Positions 2,337 through 56,557 of a stretch of DNA of 64,000 nt are shown here, piece after piece. Under the pieces are notes generated by a model. It searched no databases. It saw nothing but the letters and a program-made list of their open reading frames with translations, and was not told the DNA's origin. Each line of letters starts with the position of its first letter. Position 1 is the first letter of the stretch. Source of the stretch: a virus; the IMG/VR virus record IMGVR_UViG_3300028412_000009; one strand, written 5' to 3'. The position numbers were made by a program, and so were the translations under genes.

Positions 2337-4196
2337 ATGAGAAGACTTTCGGATGAATTTCTCTTAGCTGGAGATGATCCTAACAGAAGCACTCTTAGTC
2401 AGGTCTTTGACGAGGAACCTGTCTCCCTAGACGTGTTTGTGCAGGATCAAAAGTTTCTTAATAACCCTCCCCTGTCGGACATCCAGTTTGAGCTTGTGCG
2501 TCATATTGAGCGTGTCTATCTTCCAGAGCTCTACCCTGCCATGGCTGACGAATTCGGAGGCTACTGGGAGGACACCTTAGACACCCCGATGCGGAACCTT
2601 ATCACCGCACAGTGGGGCAAGGGTGGCGGAAAGGACATGACTGTTGGAGTGGCCTCTCTGAGAGTTGCCTACTTGCTGATGTGTCTGAAGTCTCCACAAC
2701 AGCACTTTGGCATGACTTCCTCCAGCTCGATCCACCTCCTCAACATTGCCGCTAACGCTCCGCAGGCCCACCGTGCTTTCTTCGTGCCTCTAACCCGAGC
2801 CGTGAAGAGAGGATGGTTTAAGGACCGAGCTGAGCCCAAGATGAACACCATCATCTATGACAAGAACATCGAGGCTATTTCGGGACACTCTGACGCTGAG
2901 GGCCAAGAGGGTTTGAACCTGATCCTCGGGGTTGCAGATGAGATCGATGCTTTCAAGGCTCGCAATGAGCTCGTAGGCGGCGGAAGGAAGGCTCGCGAGG
3001 CCTCCACTACCGCTGAGGGTATTTTGGAGATGCTTAAGACATCTGCGTCTACTCGGTTCCCTCAGACCTATAAGCGCGTGGCCATTTCCTACCCGCGCTA
3101 CCTGGGATCCACGATCCAAAAGCTGACGGAAGAGGCCAAGGTCAATGTTGAGCGTTCTCCATCAACCTCGATCTATTTTGCCTCTGGTCCCTATGCCACC
3201 TGGGAAGTAAACCCTCTTCGTAAAGGCAAGCAAGAGTTTGCATCTGACTATGAAGAGGACCCAGTGGAAGCGGCGGCTAAGTATGAATGCAAGCCTGCCC
3301 GGGCCACTAACCCCTACTACCGAAACTTCTACATCTTCAAGCAGGCTGTAGACAGGGATACGCAACCCCTTTCTGTAGGATATAAGCGACGCATGGTGGA
3401 ATCCGAGGTTACCAAAGAGAAGACTTTGGGGTGGGAGCCGGTTTTCACTCTCTCTCCCGGCTTCAAGCCGATCCAGGGGGCTCGCTATGCTATGCACGGG
3501 GATCTCGCTATTTCAGGTGACCGTGCCGGAGTTGCGATGTCTCACATCTCTCACTATGAAGAGCGAGAAGAGGTTGTCGCTTCTGGAAAGGACGGAGAGC
3601 AAGTCACTCAGAAGACTTCAGTTCCTGTGATCCGCAATGACTTCACAGTGACGTTCGAGGCAGACTCCGGAGCTGAGCCTGCCCGAGAGATTCAAGTTCG
3701 GTGGGCCCGAGAGCTGGCTTTTGAGCTAGTTAAGCGTGGGTTCCCTATTGTGTCTTATACGTTTGACTCATTTCAATCAGCAGACAACATTCAGATCCTT
3801 CAACAGCACGGGATCCCTTCTGACAAGCTCAGTCCTGACCGAGACCAGAGCATTTGGCGGACCCTGAAAGATATTGCCTCCGAAGGAAGACTTCGAATGT
3901 CTTTTAATCAGTTGTTGCTCAACGAGCTTGAGGCCCTGTCTGTTTTCGGTAAGAAGGTAGACCACCCTCCTAACGGCAGTAAAGACGCCGCCGATGCTTT
4001 TGCTTGCTCCGTGGTGGGGGCCTTGGTCGCGGGGGGCGAAGAGGACCCTGACGGGACGATGGTAAACATGGGAGACACCATTTTTGAGGTCGGAGATGAG
4101 ATACACTTAGCTGATGGGCTGGGTTCTCTTAGCCCGATAGGAATGGAGTCTATACTCTCTCTACCTTCTGGATTTGAGGAATACAGTAATGGCTAA
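2337..4196 (+). CDS. terL: Terminase large subunit (TerL)
   Basis: 619 aa. P-loop-like GKGGGKD, Walker-B-like LILGVADEID, and C-terminal nuclease-type acidic residues (HGDLAISGDRAG; GSKDAADAF). Position immediately upstream of the portal. Confidence 0.7.
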   Translation: MRRLSDEFLLAGDDPNRSTLSQVFDEEPVSLDVFVQDQKFLNNPPLSDIQFELVRHIERVYLPELYPAMADEFGGYWEDTLDTPMRNLITAQWGKGGGKDMTVGVASLRVAYLLMCLKSPQQHFGMTSSSSIHLLNIAANAPQAHRAFFVPLTRAVKRGWFKDRAEPKMNTIIYDKNIEAISGHSDAEGQEGLNLILGVADEIDAFKARNELVGGGRKAREASTTAEGILEMLKTSASTRFPQTYKRVAISYPRYLGSTIQKLTEEAKVNVERSPSTSIYFASGPYATWEVNPLRKGKQEFASDYEEDPVEAAAKYECKPARATNPYYRNFYIFKQAVDRDTQPLSVGYKRRMVESEVTKEKTLGWEPVFTLSPGFKPIQGARYAMHGDLAISGDRAGVAMSHISHYEEREEVVASGKDGEQVTQKTSVPVIRNDFTVTFEADSGAEPAREIQVRWARELAFELVKRGFPIVSYTFDSFQSADNIQILQQHGIPSDKLSPDRDQSIWRTLKDIASEGRLRMSFNQLLLNELEALSVFGKKVDHPPNGSKDAADAFACSVVGALVAGGEEDPDGTMVNMGDTIFEVGDEIHLADGLGSLSPIGMESILSLPSGFEEYSNG

Positions 4197-5667
4197 TACC
4201 AACCGAGCTCGTGGTGGAATGAGCGAGCCTGTTAAGATTGATGAGTCTAGGTATGACATCACTTTTGGTGTTGATGCCCAGCTTCCTTTCTCTACCCCAT
4301 ACTCCCCTACCACGATCCGGCCCCCTAAGCTTCGGGACGATACCCTCTATGAGGTCTCTCCTCTTGACTATGACCATAATGGGCCAACTATTCGCGAGCT
4401 TGAAATCATGCGAATGCGTGATGGCCAGGCCCAGGCTCTTCACCGCCTTCTCACTCTTCCTATTCGGTCTTCGCTCAAGACCTCTTCTATCGTCCCCGCA
4501 GAGGGAGGAGAGAAAGAGGCGAAGTTCATTGAGGATGTCTTCTATACCTCCCCATCTAACGGGGGAATGAGCGTCCCCTTCTCCCGTGTTATGGCTCAAA
4601 TCCTTGAGGGGCTGTTCACCGGGTTCTCTGCTTTCGAGAAGGTCTTTTGGAAGCCCAAGCAGGGACCTCTGAAGGGTAAGATCGCCCTGAAGAAGTTGGC
4701 GTACCGCCCTTGCTCTACTGTTACGTTTGTGACGGACGACCATGGAGGTTTCGCAGGGTTCCGTCAGAGGGTTTGGAAGGGGCCACACCAGATTGACGTG
4801 TTCATTGAGCCCAAGTACGCGATGTACTACGCCGCCCAAGAGGAGCTTAGGAAGTTCTATGGAGTAAGCTTCTTCAACGCCGCCTTCTACCACTATGACA
4901 AGAAGTCCAAGCTCTACTACACAGGCCATCTTGCCGGTCAGCGTTCTGCTGTAGGAACTCGCCTTGGTACAGTGCCTCCGGGAGCTTCGAGGTCTCAGAA
5001 GGAAGAATTCTCTAGAGCTCTGGCTAATATGTCTCTCGCTCAGTATCTGGCAATCCCTGAGGGGTTCGAGGTTGAGGTTCTCAAGGAGGGTGGGAACTTT
5101 GATTACCTTGATCTAATTAACCACCACAATTCTCAGATGTCCAAGAGTGTGTTGGCTAACTTCTTTGACAAGGATCAGGGGAGTGGATCCTCTGGAGGCT
5201 CGGCAATAAGCTTTGCCGAACCCGGGGATGACATGTTCGTTTTGATGCTCAAGGCAATTATGGACGACATTGCCGATGCCATCAACAACTTCTTGATTCC
5301 TCAGCTAATTGAGCTCAACTTTTCTAAGGGTAGATACCCCCAGTTCACGTGGGGAACTCTTACTGACGCTCAGAAGGAGGCCATCAGTGCCACCTTTGAT
5401 AAGCTCGCCACTGCTGGCCAGTCTCTTGCCATTACCCCTGAGTTCATGCGATCTCTTGAGGAGACCATGGCAGATGAGATGGGTCTTGATGTAGACTATA
5501 CTGAGGTAGAAGCCCGGGAGCAGGAAGAGCAAGCGATGGCAGAAGCTCAGTTTGCTCTTGAGCAGGGTGAAGACCCTCAAGGGGGAGACCCTGAAGCTCC
5601 CCCCATAGACCCAGAAGCTGACGCTGAAGCTCTCGCAGAACTCGAAGCTCAAGCTCTAGCCGTTTAA
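4174..5667 (+). CDS. Portal protein
   Basis: 497 aa, directly downstream of TerL. Highly acidic, Ala/Glu-rich C-terminus typical of portals. Start may be the ATG near 4189. Confidence 0.6.
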   Translation: MRNTVMANTNRARGGMSEPVKIDESRYDITFGVDAQLPFSTPYSPTTIRPPKLRDDTLYEVSPLDYDHNGPTIRELEIMRMRDGQAQALHRLLTLPIRSSLKTSSIVPAEGGEKEAKFIEDVFYTSPSNGGMSVPFSRVMAQILEGLFTGFSAFEKVFWKPKQGPLKGKIALKKLAYRPCSTVTFVTDDHGGFAGFRQRVWKGPHQIDVFIEPKYAMYYAAQEELRKFYGVSFFNAAFYHYDKKSKLYYTGHLAGQRSAVGTRLGTVPPGASRSQKEEFSRALANMSLAQYLAIPEGFEVEVLKEGGNFDYLDLINHHNSQMSKSVLANFFDKDQGSGSSGGSAISFAEPGDDMFVLMLKAIMDDIADAINNFLIPQLIELNFSKGRYPQFTWGTLTDAQKEAISATFDKLATAGQSLAITPEFMRSLEETMADEMGLDVDYTEVEAREQEEQAMAEAQFALEQGEDPQGGDPEAPPIDPEADAEALAELEAQALAV

Positions 5668-51424: not shown

Positions 51425-52427
51425 ATGTTCGTATTGGCATTGATTCTGATCCTTCTGGGAATTGCTGGGCTTTTTGTCTCCCTGGTGCTCCACAAGAAGG
51501 TCAAGAATATGATGAGCGCGGAGTCTTCGCGCTACTTCAACTCCGATCTGGCAGACGCCAAGTTCGCTAAGAAAACGACTCTGGTCATCTCTTGCATCTT
51601 GGGGGCTGTTGGGCCCGTCGTCTTGTTCTTCAGCTCGTTTTATGTTCAGGATGCTGGTGAGGCAAAGGTTCAGGTTTCGTGGACTGGTGAGCTCATCGGA
51701 CAGACTACTGAGGAGGGACTGCACTTCAAGGCCCCTTGGGTCAGTGTCCGTACCTTCGATGTCCGCAACAACATTGCTTCCTTCATTGATGGCGGGGGAG
51801 ACCACTTATACGGGAGGCAAGGCCACCGGCCCTCAGATCACCTTCCAGGACCGTGATGGTGTGACGGGTAACCTCGATGTTGTCGTTCGATACTCAGTGG
51901 ATCCCACCGCTGTATTGGAGATCTATCGAGAGTTTCAGACCCAGGAAGCCTTTGTTGATCGAGTGATTCTCCAGGGGGTCCGCGAAGAGGCCAGAAATGC
52001 TCCTGCTACTCGTGGGACTCTAGAGGTCTACAACTCCCGAGCTCAGGTAGCTTTCGAGATCTCGGAGTCCTTGCGCGAGCGCTGGGCTGAGGAAGGTGTC
52101 ATCGTTGAAGAGGTCACACTCCAGGAGATTCGCTACAGCTCCGAAGTGACTGCCCGTTTTGATGACGCACAAGCGGCTCGGATTGCTGTGGACCGGGCTG
52201 AGGCTGAGCAGGAAGCGGCTTCGGTTGTTGCTGACACCTTGGTGATTGAAGCACAGGGTGTGGCTGATGCGGCTGTGGTTGAGGCCCAGGGGCGGTCTGA
52301 GGCAAACGAGATCCTCTCCAGCTCCCTGACTGAGGAAATTCTTCTCCAACGCTACATCGACGCACTGAATGATGGTACAATCTATGTAGTCCCGGAGGGA
52401 TCCACTCCCTTCATTGGGACCCGATAG
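51425..52427 (+). pseudogene. SPFH/band-7 (prohibitin/HflKC-like) gene interrupted by a +1 frame change in a G5 run near 51793-51797
   Basis: N-terminal TM helix plus the start of the SPFH domain sit in one frame (51425-51856). The continuation is in another frame (VVRYSVDP...VIEAQGVADAAVVEAQGRSEANEIL...YIDAL...IYVVP, to 52427). The junction lies at ggcgggggag. Confidence 0.5.
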
Positions 52428-53109: not shown

Positions 53110-53709
53110 ATGAATATAGATACCAGCAATAGTCTAATTGGTCTCGGGGGTAGACTTCGATCAGGCAAAGACACTGTGGCTGACTACTTGGTGGAGAGCT
53201 ATGGGTACCGGAAGATTGGTTTTTCGGATGCTCTCCATGAGATGCTTTTGGTGCTCAACCCCACGGTCAACCTCTCTTTCACCAAATCTTCTTACGCTGA
53301 TCTCACAACCAAGCTGGGGTACACGGGCGCTAAGAAGATCCCCGAGGTCCGGAGACTACTTCAAGTGCTGGGCACCGAGGTGGGAAGGAACATGATTGAT
53401 GAAGATCTGTGGGTCAATCAGGCCGAGAAGAAGATTCGAGCTTCTTGGGATGAAGGGTTTCCGGTAGTCATTACTGGAGTTAGATTCCCTAATGAACTCA
53501 AGATGATCAGACTTCTGGAAGGCCGATCTGTCTGGGTCTCTCGTCCTTCTGTGGATGCTCAGACTTCTGCACATTCGTCAGAAAATACATTGCAGCCTGT
53601 TTACTTCAATTCCGTAATTCAGAATTCTGGGTCTCTAGATGATCTTTACGAAAACGTTGACGCCCTTCTTTACCAAAATAACCCCGAACTAAGAAAGTTA
53701 GACAATTGA
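53110..53709 (+). CDS. Deoxynucleoside monophosphate kinase (T4 gp1-like)
   Basis: IGLGGRLRSGKDTVADYLV resembles the T4 dNMP kinase P-loop (LSGVKRSGKDTTADF). The ORF track begins at 53038; the ATG at 53110 is the likelier start. Confidence 0.55.
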   Translation: MNIDTSNSLIGLGGRLRSGKDTVADYLVESYGYRKIGFSDALHEMLLVLNPTVNLSFTKSSYADLTTKLGYTGAKKIPEVRRLLQVLGTEVGRNMIDEDLWVNQAEKKIRASWDEGFPVVITGVRFPNELKMIRLLEGRSVWVSRPSVDAQTSAHSSENTLQPVYFNSVIQNSGSLDDLYENVDALLYQNNPELRKLDN

Positions 53710-54410
53710 CAGAAATTCAGTTCTCAGATATTGCCGTAAATCTCATTGGCTCTATGGGATCTGACGCTTCTATTGTGCAGGCGGCTCGTGTTTCTCTTTC
53801 CGGAGAAAACGAGGTTGAAATGACCTCAAAGGAAGAGGGTCTTATCAATTATTTGATGAGAAATAAGCACGGGTCTCCCTTTGAACACACTACTCTCAAG
53901 TTCTATGTCAAAGCCCCCATCTTTGTGTTCCGTGAATTCCATAGACACAGGATCGGATTCAGTTACAATGAGATGAGTGGCCGATACACCAAGCTGAAAC
54001 CAGAGTTCTATCTTCCTTCTTGGGATAGGCCTTTGATCAATGTGGGGACTAGTGCCTCCCCTGATTTTGCTCCTGGGGATGAGTACCTCGTCACCAAACT
54101 TCGAGAGACTCTCGCTTCTCAGTATCGAAGTGCTTGGAATGATTATGAAGAGCTTATTGCTATGGGGGTTGCCAACGAGGTAGCCAGGGTGCTCCTTCCT
54201 GTGGGAATCATGAGCCAGATGTATGTCACGTGTAATGTTCGGTCCATGATGAGCTTCCTGTCTCTGCGCACCCAGGATGACCGCGCGGCTCATGTCTCGA
54301 AGCCTCAGCTGGAGATCCAGATGGTGGCTCGTCAGATGGAGGAGGCTTTTGCTGGGCTCTTCCCTGTCACCTACGCCAGCTACAACACCAACCAGCGTGT
54401 GGCTCCGTAG
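53706..54410 (+). CDS. thyX: Flavin-dependent thymidylate synthase ThyX
   Basis: ThyX signature REFHRHRIGFSYNEMSGRY (RHRxxxxxxxS-x-R). Confidence 0.85.
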   Translation: MTEIQFSDIAVNLIGSMGSDASIVQAARVSLSGENEVEMTSKEEGLINYLMRNKHGSPFEHTTLKFYVKAPIFVFREFHRHRIGFSYNEMSGRYTKLKPEFYLPSWDRPLINVGTSASPDFAPGDEYLVTKLRETLASQYRSAWNDYEELIAMGVANEVARVLLPVGIMSQMYVTCNVRSMMSFLSLRTQDDRAAHVSKPQLEIQMVARQMEEAFAGLFPVTYASYNTNQRVAP

Positions 54411-54422: not shown

Positions 54423-54450
54423 GAAAGTTCAAAATTTTTGCCCTCTGAGC

Positions 54451-54480
54451 TTGACAAGGGCCCGGAGGGTCTGTAGTGTC
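54451..54480 (+). promoter_or_regulatory. Sigma-70-like promoter upstream of the Y RNA array
   Basis: TTGACA at 54451-54456, an 18-nt spacer, and TAGTGT at 54475-54480. Lies just downstream of an instance of the conserved 11-mer. Confidence 0.35.
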
Positions 54481-54506: not shown

Positions 54507-54592
54507 TTACACGAGCCGAAGAGGCAGTCGGTTATCATTCAAACTGAAATTATGCCCTCGGGCTATCCGACCCTCACCCCATGTTCGTGTGT
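54507..54592 (+). ncRNA. Y RNA-like element 1 (Ro60-binding-type stem with bulged C; internal GC hairpin gccctcgggc)
   Basis: 5' ttaCACGAGC-C-GAAGagg pairs with 3' cCTC-ACCCCAT-GTTCGTGtg. The architecture matches units 2 and 3. A GGTTATC box is shared by all three units. Confidence 0.4.
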
Positions 54593-54598
54593 TTCTTA

Positions 54599-54709
54599 GA
54601 ATGAGCCGAAGAGGCATCGGTTATCCCACTGAAAATGAGAACCTGGCGGTTCGATTCCGTCATTAGTTGGAACAGGTTATTTTTCCGATCTTCACCCCCA
54701 TGCTCATTC
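54599..54709 (+). ncRNA. Y RNA-like element 2 with tRNA-like T-arm
   Basis: 5' GAATGAGC-C-GAAG (54599-54611) pairs with 3' CTTC-ACCCCCAT-GCTCATTC (54690-54709). Internal T-arm GGCGG-TTCGATT-CCGTC at 54645-54661. Confidence 0.5.
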
Positions 54710-54713
54710 ACTC

Positions 54714-54755
54714 GCCTCTCTTGGAGGTTCATCGGGTTCGACTCCCGATGGAGGC
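54714..54755 (+). ncRNA. tRNA top-half-like minihelix (acceptor-like stem GCCTC/GAGGC enclosing a perfect T-arm)
   Basis: TCGGG-TTCGACT-CCCGA (54732-54748) flanked by gcctc...gaggc. No D-arm or anticodon arm is present. Confidence 0.3.
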
Positions 54756-54758
54756 ACA

Positions 54759-54892
54759 AAAACTGAACCGAAGAAGTATTGGTTATCCATGCTAAGGAAG
54801 AGGTCACGGGTTCGAATCCCGTCATCAGACCTAGTCTGATGTAGCTCAGAGGCAGAGCGCTTAAACCCAATCTTCACCCCATGTTCAGTTTT
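54759..54892 (+). ncRNA. Y RNA-like element 3 (YrlA-like) with a complete tRNA-mimic module
   Basis: Terminal stem AAAACTGAAC-C-GAAG (54759-54773) pairs with CTTC-ACCCCAT-GTTCAGTTTT (54872-54892). Inside are a T-arm ACGGG-TTCGAAT-CCCGT (54806-54822), an acceptor-like hairpin CATCAGAC-cta-GTCTGATG (54823-54841), a U8-A9-like TA, and a D-arm GCTC-AGAGGCA-GAGC (54844-54858). Confidence 0.55.
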
Positions 54893-54937
54893 ACCACATG
54901 TTCAGAAATACTGAACCGAGAGAAAGGATGAACACCT

Positions 54938-56557
54938 ATGGCTAACAATAGCCTCAAGTCCGTCACAACCCGACCCGGAATGACGGCCACTCCTCAGACG
55001 CAGAAGGCGGCTAAGGGGCAGAAGGAGAACAACGCAGGCGGCTACACGTTCACTGTCTCAGACATGGACCGAGCCAAGCGTTTCTTGATCCTTGGATCTG
55101 ACTCGTCGTTCTACCAGAGCGGCCAGGAGCTCTCCAAGGACAACGCCAAGAACCTGATCAAGCTTGCGAAGTCTGACCGTGCCCAGGAGCTCACTGACCT
55201 GATTGTGGAGATCTCCACTCAGGGTCGTGCGGCCAAGCAGGACCCCGGTCTGTTTGCACTGGCCGTCGTGGCTTCCCATGGCGCGACTGAGGACAAGCAG
55301 TACGCTCTGTCCAAGCTCTCTCAGGTAGCCCGTACCGGATCCTCGCTGTTCACGTTCATCACTTACGTGGAGCAGTTCCGAGGGTGGGGGCGTGCCCTGA
55401 CCAAGGCGGTTTCTTCTTGGTACACGGAGAAGTCTGTGGACAAGCTCGCCTACCAGACGGTGAAGTACCGTCAGCGTGATGGCTGGACTCACCGGGACGT
55501 GTTCCGCAAGGCGCACCCTCAGAAGGGCAAGAACGGAATCTCCGAAGGAGAGGATGCTCGTGCTTTTGAGGCGCTGGGTGAGTGGATTCTCCGAGGTGAG
55601 TTGTTGGAGAACACTCCTAAGCTTGTTCGCGGCTTCACGATGGCCCAGACTGCTTCTAAGTCTGAGCTTCCTGCTCTGATCAGGGAGTACGGACTGTCGT
55701 GGGAGATGCTTCCTACCGAGGCTCTGAACGACAAGAAGGTCTGGGAGACGTTGCTTCAGGGCAATGTTCCTCTCGGGGCCCTGTTGCGTCAGCTTCCTCG
55801 TTTGACGAAGCTCGGCATCGTCGCGCCTATGGGTGGAAAGACTGCTGAGATCGCCAAGAGGATCACTGATCCTGAGGAGCTCAAGCGTGCCCGTATCCAC
55901 CCCTTGAACCTTCTGGTTGCCCAGAAGACCTACGGGGCGGGGCACAGCCTCCGGGGCAATTCCTCCTGGGCCCCCAACCAGAAGATCGTGGACGCTCTTG
56001 ACAAGGCCTTCTACCTGTCCTTCAAGACGGTCGAGCCCGCTGGCAAGCGCACTCTGATTGGGTTGGATGTCTCCGGCTCGATGGGCTGGGCTTCAGTGGC
56101 CGGGGTTCCTCTCATGCCTTCCGAGGCAGGAGCGGCCCTTGCGTTGGTCATTGCCAACACGGAGCCTGAGGCGCACATCTTCGGATTTGCGGACACCTTC
56201 CGTGAGTTGGGCCTCTCCCCAGGGATGCGACTTGACCAGGCCCTGCGGCAGACAAGTTTAAGGACGTTCGGAGGCACGGACTGTGCTCAGGCCATCGAGT
56301 ACGCTCGTACTCACAAGTTGGAAGTGGACACGTTCCTTGTGATCACAGACAACGAAACCTACGGGGGTCGGAGTCACCCACACGAGGCCTTGCAGAGGTA
56401 CCGTCGAGAGACTGGCATCGATGCGAAGCTCATCGTGCTGGCGACTACTGCTTCCGAGTTCAGCCTCGCGGATCCCAGTGATGGTGGGATGCTGGACATC
56501 GCTGGGTTCGACTCAGCAGTTCCTCAGCTGATCAACGAGTTCTCTCGGGGACTCTGA
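54938..56557 (+). CDS. rsr: Ro60 orthologue (Rsr): TROVE domain plus C-terminal vWA domain
   Basis: 539 aa. The N-terminal and central region resembles TROVE. The vWA MIDAS motif LIGLDVSGSMGW (DxSGS) is followed by conserved vWA blocks. GC content and codon usage are higher than in the flanking phage genes. Confidence 0.8.
   Translation: MANNSLKSVTTRPGMTATPQTQKAAKGQKENNAGGYTFTVSDMDRAKRFLILGSDSSFYQSGQELSKDNAKNLIKLAKSDRAQELTDLIVEISTQGRAAKQDPGLFALAVVASHGATEDKQYALSKLSQVARTGSSLFTFITYVEQFRGWGRALTKAVSSWYTEKSVDKLAYQTVKYRQRDGWTHRDVFRKAHPQKGKNGISEGEDARAFEALGEWILRGELLENTPKLVRGFTMAQTASKSELPALIREYGLSWEMLPTEALNDKKVWETLLQGNVPLGALLRQLPRLTKLGIVAPMGGKTAEIAKRITDPEELKRARIHPLNLLVAQKTYGAGHSLRGNSSWAPNQKIVDALDKAFYLSFKTVEPAGKRTLIGLDVSGSMGWASVAGVPLMPSEAGAALALVIANTEPEAHIFGFADTFRELGLSPGMRLDQALRQTSLRTFGGTDCAQAIEYARTHKLEVDTFLVITDNETYGGRSHPHEALQRYRRETGIDAKLIVLATTASEFSLADPSDGGMLDIAGFDSAVPQLINEFSRGL

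What the first reader, a model, noticed from the sequence alone, without database searches (positions are those of the whole stretch)
54714..54860. tRNA-mimic modules inside the Y RNA units
The region contains three T-arms with canonical TΨC-type loops. Two are perfect stems and one includes a G-U pair: GGCGG-TTCGATT-CCGTC at 54645-54661 (inside unit 2), TCGGG-TTCGACT-CCCGA at 54732-54748 (the orphan T-arm, inside feature 54714-54755), and ACGGG-TTCGAAT-CCCGT at 54806-54822 (inside unit 3). None has an acceptor partner in the tRNA position. In unit 3 the T-arm is followed by an 8-bp acceptor-like stem closed by a CTA loop (CATCAGAC-cta-GTCTGATG). This is followed by TA and a perfect D-arm (GCTC-AGAGGCA-GAGC). 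The Ro-binding stem occupies the anticodon-stem position. This is the architecture of YrlA-type bacterial Y RNAs, which mimic the tRNA elbow. The element at 54714-54755 is a tRNA top-half-like minihelix (GCCTC/GAGGC stem plus T-arm). Such mimics may recruit tRNA-binding enzymes such as modification enzymes, RNase P or the CCA-adding enzyme. They could also act as decoys for tRNA-targeting nucleases.
Basis: partly seen in the sequence, partly recalled or inferred. Interest (0 to 1): 0.85.

Follow-up and report, generated by a model that had tools for sequence, protein, structure and literature searches.

The report
Phage Y RNAs that mimic tRNA
Just upstream of a phage's Ro60 gene sit three small Y RNA genes, two of which carry tRNA look-alike parts; this kind of RNA (YrlA) was described in bacteria and mycobacteriophages in 2014, so the finding is real but mostly ordinary.

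Summary
GGTTCGANTCC occurs three times in 64 kb, all on the + strand within 175 nt (0.19 expected). ARAGORN finds no tRNA or tmRNA.

The stretch lies between thyX and a full-length Ro60 gene (54938-56557) and holds three Y RNA units.
- Unit 3 (54759-54892) is a complete YrlA-type Y RNA. A covariance model built from 22 relatives, without the window, scores it 106.7 bits (E 2.5e-26). The family structure covaries strongly, including the tRNA 15:48 pair.
- Unit 2 (54599-54709) is a decayed YrlA copy (44.9 bits). It keeps the T-arm and a GUUGG D-loop remnant.
- Unit 1 has no tRNA part.

This is the architecture published by Chen et al. 2014 and Wang et al. 2018, so it is a new member of a known kind.

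The orphan element (54714-54756) has a solid T hairpin. Its acceptor stem is not above chance (p about 0.1) and is not the favoured fold. It does sit exactly where real tRNAs sit between Y RNAs in other actinophages, so it is probably an anticodon-less tRNA relic.

Separately, the Ro mRNA leader carries a permuted copy of the Ro-binding stem running into the ribosome-binding site. That hints at autoregulation.

The parts
54451..54479 (+). Promoter-like site: TTGACA (54451-54456), 17-nt spacer, TAGTGT (54474-54479). It would start a transcript about 20 nt before unit 1.
   Evidence: Read from the sequence. It fits the actinobacterial TANNNT -10 form. The consensus scan did not report it because only 3 of 6 positions match TATAAT. 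This is an inference.
54508..54591 (+). Y RNA unit 1: Ro-binding stem (GAGCCGAAG...GGTTATC with ...CACCCCATGTTCGTG) and no tRNA-like module.
   Evidence: Fold -25.8 kcal/mol, z -2.8. The 5'-strand HMM hits 54510-54536 (E 7e-4) and the 3'-strand HMM hits 54566-54590. Repeat families D1, D2 and D3.
54599..54709 (+). Y RNA unit 2: Ro-binding stem plus a T-arm (54645-54661). The acceptor-like hairpin is missing and the D stem is lost, but a GUUGG D-loop remnant remains (54666-54670). It is a decayed YrlA copy, comparable to T-arm-bearing YrlB.
   Evidence: Leave-one-out model R1 gives 44.9 bits, E 6.4e-10, with the acceptor-like-hairpin positions deleted. 5'-strand HMM E 1.2e-4. T-arm-only units are common in related loci.
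54714..54756 (+). Orphan tRNA-like element between units 2 and 3. Its parts are a possible acceptor 5' strand GCCUCUC (54714-54720), an 11-nt connector, the T-arm (54732-54748, extendable to 8 bp at 54729-54751), a possible acceptor 3' strand UGGAGGC (54749-54755), and a discriminator-like A at 54756.
   Evidence: T stem probability about 0.99 and acceptor pairs about 0.001. The acceptor stem is not above chance. Its spacing to the flanking Y stems matches real tRNA/Y RNA junctions in phages Forza and GMA2. Locus L001 has an analogue at 2683-2749.
54759..54892 (+). Y RNA unit 3, a full YrlA-type RNA. Terminal stem 54759-54768 with 54883-54892; ACCGAAG motif at 54767-54773; variable hairpin; T-arm 54806-54822; closed acceptor-like hairpin 54823-54841 (8 bp, CUA loop); U8-A9 at 54842-54843; D-arm 54844-54858.
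   Evidence: R1 gives 106.7 bits, E 2.5e-26, full length. Rfam YrlA core gives 34.9 bits. Fold -39.4 kcal/mol, z -3.0, 0 of 200 shuffles as good. Covariation on alignment A1.
54890..54928 (+). Ro mRNA leader: a circularly permuted copy of the Y stem. The order is the 3'-type strand UUUACCACAUGUUCAG, loop AAAUA, then the 5'-type strand CUGAACCGAGAG, which runs into the Shine-Dalgarno AAAGGA (54923-54928).
   Evidence: Repeat families D2, D3 and D6 and inverted repeat I3. Hairpin 54900-54916. The same arrangement, with each phage's own stem sequence, occurs in Cece, A3Wally, Zooman, Magritte and L001-L004.
54938..56557 (+). Ro60 orthologue (539 aa), the protein partner of the Y RNAs.
   Evidence: Pfam TROVE 5e-46 and vWA_Ro60 5e-55. 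Full-length match to D. radiodurans Rsr 2NVO (E 1e-114) and Xenopus Ro60 1YVP (E 7e-110).

Best explanation
The intergenic stretch 54.45-54.94 kb is a same-strand array of three Y RNA genes in front of a phage Ro60 gene.

Unit 3 is a complete YrlA-type Y RNA. Its two ends pair into the bulged Ro-binding stem. The interior is a circularly permuted tRNA: variable hairpin, T-arm, an 8-bp acceptor-like hairpin closed by a loop, U8-A9, and a D-arm. It carries every nucleotide needed for the D-loop/T-loop elbow. Unit 2 is a decayed copy that keeps the stem, the T-arm and a GUUGG piece of the D loop. Unit 1 is a plain Y RNA. The T hairpin between units 2 and 3 lies outside any unit and is most likely what is left of a tRNA that once separated them.

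How it works is inferred from characterised homologues, not shown here. The array is transcribed with or just ahead of Ro and cut into units. Ro binds each stem. The tRNA-like domain is handled by tRNA enzymes: TruB on U55 at 54651, 54738 and 54812, and possibly RNase P plus the CCA-adding enzyme on the tRNA-length hairpin of unit 3. That domain serves as the handle that ties the Ro ring to an elbow-binding effector or exoribonuclease, steering structured-RNA decay or repair in the infected cell.
For: Shown here:
- Three canonical T-arm motifs cluster here and occur nowhere else in 64 kb.
- ARAGORN finds no tRNA or tmRNA.
- A Ro60 gene starts 45 nt downstream of unit 3.
- Three repeated 5' strands and four repeated 3' strands define the units.
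- Model R1, built without the window, scores unit 3 at 106.7 bits (E 2.5e-26) and unit 2 at 44.9 bits; the next hit in the window is 8.8 bits.
- On 23 sequences, 94.6% of cells pair against 71.8% in shuffles and 35-48% when partners are slid. 27 of 35 pairs show double changes.
- The tertiary 15:48 pair covaries: C-G 15, U-A 7, U-G 1. U8 and A14 are invariant.
- Unit 3 has U8, A14, G15:C48, a GG pair in the D loop that can serve as G18-G19, and U54-U55-C56-G57-A58.

From the literature:
- YrlA RNAs lie within 4 kb of Ro on the same strand in 254 bacteria and 22 phages. They are modified by TruB and DusA. M. smegmatis YrlA, with a 7-bp stem, is cut by RNase P and receives CCA. YrlA and YrlB come from one precursor upstream of rsr (PMC4201824).
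- The crystal structure shows a tRNA-like L shape with the Ro module in the anticodon-stem position (10.1101/312249).
- A Thermus phage Ro60 binds two upstream Y-like RNAs and host PNPase (PMC12135203).
Against: - Rfam's YrlA gathering score (69 bits) is not reached; unit 3 scores 34.9 bits on the core only. None of the 20 related phage and actinobacterial loci scanned reaches it either, and the one scored at relaxed threshold, L001, gets 44.4 bits over the full model length.
- Unit 3 has ACCGAAG, not the published GNCGAAG. The A pairs with a U.
- Its D loop (AGAGGCA) is short and has no uridine, so it cannot carry dihydrouridine as Salmonella YrlA does.
- There are no expression, binding or modification data for this phage.
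- No close relative exists in any collection searched, so nothing in this particular locus is supported by its own covariation.
- The effector of YrlA-type domains is unknown even in the model organisms.
Confidence: 0.87

Rival explanations
1. The orphan element (54714-54756) is a working processing signal. It would be an anticodon-less tRNA top half kept because RNase P cuts at its 5' end, making the 3' end of unit 2 at 54713, and a tRNA 3' enzyme cuts after A54756, freeing the 5' end of unit 3. This is how mascRNA defines the MALAT1 3' end.
For: - The geometry matches real junctions. In phage Forza, tRNAs and Y RNAs alternate with 0-3 nt between calls (tmRNA-Y-tRNAArg-Y-tRNAGln-YrlA-tRNAIle-Y-tRNAMet). 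GMA2, Tomas and L003 have tight tRNA/Y junctions too.
- In the window, unit 2's stem ends 4 nt before G54714, and unit 3's stem starts 2 nt after the discriminator-like A54756.
- L001 has a perfect 7-bp acceptor plus T-arm without a normal anticodon arm in the same position between two Y units. ARAGORN does not call it a tRNA, and the mascRNA model scores it 23 bits, E 0.035.
Against: - The acceptor stem is not above chance (p 0.09-0.16).
- It is 4 kcal/mol worse than the two-hairpin fold, with pair probability about 0.001.
- The unit 1/unit 2 junction, and the three tandem YrlA units of Magritte, have no tRNA-like spacer. Such an element is therefore not required.
- No homologue is available for covariation.
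Confidence: 0.25
2. The orphan element is a decaying leftover with no role of its own. It could come from a tRNA or from the variable-hairpin plus T-arm part of a lost YrlA copy. At most it is one more free-standing T hairpin that TruB can bind.
For: - Only the T hairpin is structurally robust.
- The flanks pair no better than chance.
- The sequence CGGGTTCGACTCCCG is 93% identical to the unit 3 T-arm (repeat family D7).
- The layout hairpin-GGAGGUUCA-T-arm resembles the variable hairpin-AGAGGUC-T-arm of YrlA.
- Unit 2 shows that decay of tRNA-like parts happens in this very array.
Against: - The 5-bp T stem and the 7-nt T loop are perfect.
- The element sits at exact junction distances from both neighbouring units.
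- A similar element recurs in L001.
Confidence: 0.45
3. The T-arms belong to real tRNA genes or tRNA pseudogenes, or to a tmRNA.
For: - Weak Rfam alignments: tRNA at 54600-54664 (14 bits, E 9) and tmRNA at 54723-54827 (18.9 bits).
- ARAGORN and GenBank annotators have called the 5' halves of related Y units tRNA-Arg or tRNA-Gln.
Against: - ARAGORN finds nothing in the window, and nothing reaches any Rfam gathering score.
- The tmRNA alignment has six non-standard acceptor pairs and 55 nt where 318 are expected, with no tag reading frame.
- The same bases are fully explained by the Y RNA model at 45-107 bits.
Confidence: 0.02
4. The orphan T-arm plus 3' strand is an attP core, that is, a copy of the 3' end of a host tRNA gene used for integration.
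For: Gordonia phage BearBQ has such a fragment (L043:1537-1570...GCGGGTTCGATTCCCGTCATCGGCTCCA). It lies between its integrase and its Y RNA/Ro locus.
Against: - No integrase was found among 25 window ORFs scanned against Pfam. The window looks like a lytic siphovirus: capsid, DNA polymerase A, DnaB, RecA, nearly all genes on one strand.
- The element is wedged between two Y units.
- It is followed by CAA, not CCA.
Confidence: 0.03
5. The tRNA-like modules act mainly as decoys that soak up host tRNA-targeting defence nucleases, rather than as handles for Ro partners.
For: Only context supports this. Phages often carry tRNA arrays and tRNA repair enzymes. In Salmonella, rsr and yrlA sit in an RNA repair operon that responds to damaged tRNAs (PMC7790460).
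Against: - None of the modules has an anticodon loop, which is the usual target of such nucleases.
- The same modules occur in free-living actinobacteria.
Confidence: 0.07

Closest known systems
YrlA (Rfam RF02553; Chen et al. 2014, PMC4201824; structure in Wang et al. 2018, 10.1101/312249)
   Same: - Lies next to Ro60 and on the same strand.
- Has a 5' CGAAG-type motif in a bulged terminal stem.
- Has the same interior order: variable hairpin, T-arm, closed acceptor-like hairpin, UA, D-arm.
- Has a near-invariant GGTTCGANTCC and TAGCTCA...GAGC, and the Levitt pair.
   Different: - Below Rfam's gathering score, as is every related phage and actinobacterial locus scanned.
- The first base of the motif is A, not G.
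- The acceptor-like hairpin is 8 bp (Salmonella has 6, M. smegmatis has 7).
- The D loop has 7 nt and no uridine.
- It is phage-borne and the last of three tandem units.
M. smegmatis YrlA/YrlB pair (PMC4201824)
   Same: - Several Y RNAs lie upstream of rsr; in M. smegmatis they come from one precursor.
- One unit is a full tRNA mimic with a tRNA-length acceptor-like stem, and another has only a T-arm. This matches unit 3 and unit 2.
   Different: - There are three units plus an extra T hairpin here.
[quoted passage not shown]
- The loop after the stem reads C-CUA-G, with a G-C pair at the -1:73 position.
mascRNA / MEN-beta tRNA-like elements (Rfam RF01684)
   Same: An acceptor plus T-arm element without a working anticodon arm, placed at the end of another RNA, where RNase P cleavage makes that RNA's 3' end. 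This is a functional analogy for the orphan element and for L001:2683-2749.
   Different: - These are eukaryotic nuclear RNAs and are not homologous.
- The window element did not score with this model.
- Its acceptor stem is doubtful.
Thermus phage phiLo Yrl1/Yrl2 with phage Ro60 (PMC12135203)
   Same: A phage Ro60 gene with Y-like RNAs immediately upstream that carry a CGAA motif in a stem-bulge-stem.
   Different: The paper describes the phiLo RNAs by their stem-bulge-stem shape; the passages retrieved do not mention a tRNA-like domain. The host phylum is different.
D. radiodurans Yrn1
   Same: A Ro-bound Y RNA with a T-arm-like stem-loop. It tethers Ro to an exoribonuclease (PNPase).
   Different: The T and D elements are in a different order, and the stem between them sits in the anticodon position. 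It lacks a full D-arm (PMC4201824).

Membership tests
YrlA-type Y RNA | Encoded within 4 kb of a Ro60 (TROVE) gene and on the same strand | tested here: met
   Unit 3 ends at 54892. The Ro60 gene starts at 54938 on the + strand.
YrlA-type Y RNA | GNCGAAN0-1G motif near the 5' end, inside a terminal stem formed with the 3' end | tested here: inconclusive
   Units 1 and 2 have GCCGAAG. Unit 3 has ACCGAAG, and the A pairs with a U. In alignment A1 that position forms G-C 12, G-U 6 and A-U 2. The stem itself covaries.
YrlA-type Y RNA | Interior order T-arm, closed acceptor-like hairpin, two bases, D-arm, with near-invariant T and D sequences | tested here: met
   Unit 3 coordinates are 54806-54858. 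The T stem and acceptor-like hairpin covary, and the D stem is invariant in 23 of 23 sequences. Unit 2 meets only the T-arm part.
YrlA-type Y RNA | Nucleotides for tRNA tertiary contacts (U8-A14, G15:C48 or A15:U48, G18-G19 with U55-C56, U54-A58) | tested here: met
   All are present in unit 3 by sequence. The 15:48 pair covaries across relatives: C-G 15, U-A 7, U-G 1. Actual formation of these contacts was not tested.
YrlA-type Y RNA | Score at or above Rfam RF02553 gathering threshold (69 bits) | tested here: not met
   Unit 3 scores 34.9 bits, on model positions 23-87 only. None of 20 related phage and actinobacterial loci reaches it, and L001's YrlA scores 44.4 bits. The threshold therefore does not recover any of the related phage and actinobacterial loci scanned. 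The independent model R1 gives 106.7 bits.
YrlA-type Y RNA | Bound by Ro60, and modified by TruB or cleaved by RNase P | not testable with these tools
   This needs immunoprecipitation, CMC mapping of U54812 and RNase P assays.
tRNA | Cloverleaf with an open 7-bp acceptor stem and an anticodon arm | tested here: not met
   ARAGORN finds 0 genes. The Rfam tRNA model's best score is 14 bits, E 9. The T-arms of units 2 and 3 have no acceptor partner.
tmRNA | tRNA-like acceptor/T domain enclosing a tag reading frame and pseudoknots | tested here: not met
   Score is 18.9 bits against a gathering score of 47. All six outer acceptor pairs are non-standard, and 55 nt stand in place of 318. ARAGORN finds no tmRNA.
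tRNA-like processing element (minihelix, mascRNA-like) | Acceptor stem stacked on a T-arm (about 12 bp) that is cleaved by RNase P | tested here: inconclusive
   The T-arm is perfect. The acceptor has 6 of 7 pairs, but that is at chance level and is outcompeted in folding. The position fits tRNA/Y junctions in other phages. Cleavage was not testable.

The most novel reading that the evidence does not exclude
The orphan element is an anticodon-less tRNA kept only as punctuation. In actinophages, Y RNAs are released from long precursors by the tRNA-processing enzymes: tRNAs and Y RNAs alternate base-to-base in Forza and GMA2. In phages that have lost the tRNAs, a stripped acceptor/T-arm stub survives between Y units to keep the RNase P and 3'-end cuts (this window, and L001). 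In the same operon, the Ro mRNA leader is a permuted Ro-binding stem over the ribosome-binding site, so free Ro would shut off its own translation when Y RNAs are scarce.
Probability: 0.2. Interest if true: 0.55.

Novelty: new member of a known kind. Interest (0 to 1): 0.3.

Why it matters
For the finding itself the gain is modest. It adds an unannotated Y RNA array from a previously unsampled phage to a family that is already defined biochemically and structurally.

It also shows that Rfam's YrlA threshold recovers none of the related phage and actinobacterial loci scanned here. Annotators sometimes record these RNAs as tRNAs.

The side observations could matter more. If tRNA stubs and alternating tRNA/Y RNA arrays really define Y RNA ends, that would explain how bacterial and phage Y RNAs are matured, and it would support their proposed descent from tRNAs. 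A Ro-binding stem mimic over the Ro ribosome-binding site would be a simple, testable autoregulatory loop for a protein whose regulation in bacteria is little understood.

Tried and rejected
- Rfam at gathering thresholds over the whole window gave nothing.
- The relaxed scan gave tmRNA, tRNA, plastid and snoRNA hits. I judged these to be by-products of the T-arm sequence.
- Searches for close relatives of this phage failed. Megablast of 24 kb against phages found no match. Ro-based scans of viral, metagenome and genome collections found nothing above about 55% protein identity. Exact-pattern scans for unit 3 and for the orphan element gave 0 hits.
- Blastn of the orphan element alone found only 18-21 nt T-arm matches to unrelated tRNAs. 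No parent tRNA could be named and no covariation test of the orphan was possible.
- The attP idea was rejected: no integrase was found, and the element lies in the wrong context.
- The promoter/terminator scan found no consensus promoter and no terminator on the + strand. The promoter I list was read by eye.
- My first test of the acceptor stem allowed unlimited G-U pairs and its controls were contaminated with real tRNAs. I replaced it.
- Two reviews on bacterial Y RNAs are not held in the library, and the supplementary phage table of Chen et al. is not held. I therefore cannot say which phage arrays were already listed there.

Full report
**Setting.** The finding lies in a 527-nt non-coding stretch between a thyX gene (53706-54410) and a 539-aa ORF (54938-56557). 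That ORF carries the TROVE and Ro60-vWA domains. It matches D. radiodurans Rsr (2NVO, E 1e-114) and Xenopus Ro60 (1YVP, E 7e-110) over its full length. The window is a phage genome with nearly all genes on one strand: major capsid protein, DNA polymerase A, DnaB, RecA, SNF2 helicase, methylase. No integrase was found among the ORFs scanned. No close relative exists in the phage, viral, metagenome or genome collections; the best Ro identity is about 55%.

**Checking the observation.** GGTTCGANTCC occurs three times in the 64 kb, all on the + strand at 54648, 54735 and 54809. Chance predicts 0.19, and no shuffle reached three. ARAGORN reports no tRNA or tmRNA in the window, and nothing reaches any Rfam gathering score. 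With relaxed thresholds the best hit is Rfam YrlA on 54798-54864, covering model positions 23-87, at 34.9 bits and E 8e-6. This aligns exactly the T-arm, the closed hairpin, UA and the D-arm.

**The units.** Repeat analysis shows three copies of the 5' strand (GAGCCGAAGAGGCA..GGTTATC at 54512 and 54602; GAACCGAAGAAGTATTGGTTATC at 54764). It shows four copies of the 3' strand (CACCCCATGTTC-type at 54573, 54696 and 54873, plus one in the Ro leader at 54890). Profile HMMs of the two strands, built from relatives, find the same three units. Each unit folds with its two ends paired around a CGAA bulge.

**Unit 3 is a YrlA-type RNA.**
- I collected Ro loci from phages, viral contigs, metagenomes and actinobacterial genomes. 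I aligned 23 units that have a T-arm followed by TAGCTCA.
- The consensus structure has the terminal stem, the second helix, the T stem, the closed acceptor-like hairpin and the D stem.
- On that structure 94.6% of cells pair, against 71.8% in column shuffles and 35-48% when partners are slid. 27 of 35 pairs show double changes.
- The tertiary 15:48 pair covaries (C-G 15, U-A 7, U-G 1). U8 and A14 are invariant.
- A covariance model built from the 22 relatives without the window scores unit 3 at 106.7 bits, E 2.5e-26, over its full length. It scores unit 2 at 44.9 bits, E 6.4e-10. The next hit in the 64 kb is 8.8 bits.
- In unit 2 the model deletes the acceptor-like hairpin and the D stem but aligns GUUGG to the D loop. 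Unit 2 is therefore a decayed YrlA copy with an intact T-arm.
- Unit 1 has no tRNA-like part.

**Comparison with what is known.** Chen et al. 2014 (PMC4201824) reported the following:
- YrlA RNAs lie within 4 kb of Ro on the same strand in 254 bacteria and 22 phages, including mycobacteriophages.
- They carry the GNCGAAN0-1G motif, the T, AS, D and V elements, and a covarying Levitt pair.
- Salmonella YrlA is modified by TruB and DusA.
- M. smegmatis YrlA, with a 7-bp stem, is cleaved by RNase P and receives CCA.
- YrlB also has a T-arm, and both RNAs come from one precursor upstream of rsr.

The crystal structure paper (10.1101/312249) shows the L shape, the elbow contacts, and the Ro module extending from the anticodon-stem position. 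A 2025 paper describes a Thermus phage Ro60 with two upstream Y-like RNAs and binding of host PNPase (PMC12135203).

The differences are minor:
- The Rfam gathering score is not met. None of the 20 related loci scanned reaches it either, and L001's YrlA scores 44.4 bits when scanned at relaxed threshold.
- The motif starts with A.
- The D loop is 7 nt without uridine.
- The acceptor-like hairpin is 8 bp.

Phage copies generally have 6-9 bp in this hairpin (11 in the L011 metagenomic contig), while most copies on bacterial genome contigs have 4-5 bp. Cleavage of the M. smegmatis type is therefore conceivable here but remains an inference.

**Arrays are the rule.** Two to four or more Y units upstream of Ro are found in almost every related locus. 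L004 has at least eight. T-arm-only units like unit 2 are common.

**The orphan element.**
- The T hairpin at 54732-54748, extendable to 8 bp, is robust, with pair probability about 0.99 in a fold of the whole precursor.
- The proposed acceptor stem is not robust. The minihelix scores -14.6 kcal/mol against -18.8 for two adjacent hairpins, with pair probability about 0.001.
- Six consecutive pairs with at most one G-U arise in 9% of random windows and in 16% of shuffles.
- No homologue could be found.

Context speaks for a tRNA origin:
- In Gordonia phage Forza the order downstream of Ro is tmRNA, Y, tRNA-Arg, Y, tRNA-Gln, YrlA (90 bits), tRNA-Ile, Y, tRNA-Met, with 0-3 nt between calls.
- GMA2, Tomas and L003 have similar tight junctions.
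- In L001 a perfect 7-bp acceptor plus T-arm without a normal anticodon arm lies between two Y units. ARAGORN does not call it, and the mascRNA model scores it 23 bits.
- The window element has the same spacing: 4 nt after unit 2's stem, and 2 nt between its discriminator-like A and unit 3's stem.

I conclude that it is most likely the stub of a tRNA that once separated the units. Whether it still directs RNase P and 3'-end cuts is open; I put that at about 0.25. The unit 1/unit 2 junction, and Magritte's three tandem YrlAs, manage without such an element. An attP origin, which fits a similar fragment in BearBQ next to its integrase, is unlikely here.

**Mechanism.** Shown here: the sequence and structural family, the synteny, and the covariation. 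Inferred from the characterised homologues: co-transcription from a promoter-like site at 54451-54479, processing into units, Ro binding to each stem, recognition of the T loops by TruB, and use of the tRNA-like domain as a handle for an elbow-binding effector or exoribonuclease. Nothing here tests the decoy idea. The modules lack anticodon loops, which argues against decoying anticodon nucleases.

**Seen in passing.** The Ro leader (54890-54928) repeats both strands of the Y stem in permuted order. The 3'-type strand comes first, then a 5-nt loop, then CUGAACCGAGAG, which runs into the AAAGGA ribosome-binding site 9 nt before the ATG. The same layout, each time with that phage's own stem sequence, precedes Ro in Cece, A3Wally, Zooman, Magritte and L001-L004. 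The CCGAA-type motif lies 16-26 nt before the start codon. In A3Wally and Zooman a promoter-like TTGACA sits just upstream, so the leader may be little more than this hairpin. Bacterial loci often have CCGAAAGGAGG but no clear hairpin. I found no paper describing this. It suggests that Ro represses its own translation.

**Verdict.** The object is a new, unannotated member of the known YrlA/Y RNA family in a novel phage. Interest in the finding as stated is low to moderate. The orphan stub, the alternating tRNA/Y RNA arrays and the leader mimic are the parts worth following up.

Noticed in passing
window 54890-54928 (hairpin 54900-54905 with 54911-54916; Shine-Dalgarno 54923-54928; ATG 54938): The Ro mRNA leader is a circularly permuted copy of the Ro-binding Y stem. 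The 3'-type strand comes first, then a loop, then the 5'-type strand CUGAACCGAGAG, which runs into the ribosome-binding site. The same layout, with phage-specific stems, precedes Ro in Cece, A3Wally, Zooman, Magritte and L001-L004. This suggests possible translational autoregulation by Ro. No paper on it was found.
   Followed up: partly
L049 (Gordonia phage Forza) 4383-5101; L050 (GMA2) 4180-4481; L052 (Tomas) 1351-1537; L003 2142-2355: Y RNA units and tRNA genes alternate almost base-to-base in several actinophages. In Forza and GMA2 this happens downstream of Ro, inside the tRNA/tmRNA array. It implies that tRNA-processing enzymes release the Y RNAs.
   Followed up: partly
L046 (Microbacterium phage Magritte) 1476-1552; L049 (Forza) 4534-4601; L015, L031 and L038 around 2440-2516: GenBank 'tRNA-Arg(tct)' of Magritte and 'tRNA-Gln' of Forza, and ARAGORN 'tRNA-Arg' calls in three Micropruina loci, overlap the 5' half of Y units (5' strand plus T-arm). 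The Magritte call scores 104.9 bits with the YrlA model. These are probably misannotated Y RNAs.
   Followed up: partly
L004 (IMG/VR contig) 1981-2950: At least eight Y-like units lie in a row before Ro (AGATCCAAG...GTTATC...CCTGTCT repeats). Several have different tRNA-like inserts, including one with a class II-like D-arm (TGGCTGAGCGGCCTAAAGCG).
   Followed up: no
alignment A1, acceptor-like hairpin (window 54823-54841): Phage YrlA copies have tRNA-length closed hairpins of 6-9 bp (11 in the L011 metagenomic contig); the window has 8. Most copies on bacterial genome contigs (Micropruina and relatives) have 4-5 bp. Only the long form was an RNase P substrate in M. smegmatis (PMC4201824).
   Followed up: no
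window 54844-54858: The D loop of unit 3 (AGAGGCA) contains no uridine, so it cannot carry the dihydrouridine found in Salmonella YrlA.
   Followed up: no
window 54515-54532, 54605-54621, 54767-54783: In all three units the 5' strand can also fold locally as NCCGA-loop-UYGGU, a D-arm-like hairpin, with a G-to-A / C-to-U double change in unit 3. This probably explains why tRNA finders and the Rfam tRNA model (14 bits at 54600-54664) half-recognise Y units.
   Followed up: no
window 54442-54451 and 54843-54852: A perfect 10-nt inverted repeat (CCTCTGAGCT / AGCTCAGAGG) links the promoter-like region to the D-arm of unit 3, 391 nt away. It is probably chance.
   Followed up: no
L043 (Gordonia phage BearBQ) 1537-1570: A lone T-arm followed by CATCGGCTCCA lies between the integrase side and the Y RNA/Ro locus. 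It looks like the 3' end of a host tRNA, that is, an attP core.
   Followed up: no
window 51425-52427 and L039 (Microbacterium phage Cece) 164-1183: A Band-7/SPFH membrane protein gene lies a few genes upstream of the Y RNA/Ro locus both in the window and in Cece. This may be conserved neighbourhood.
   Followed up: no
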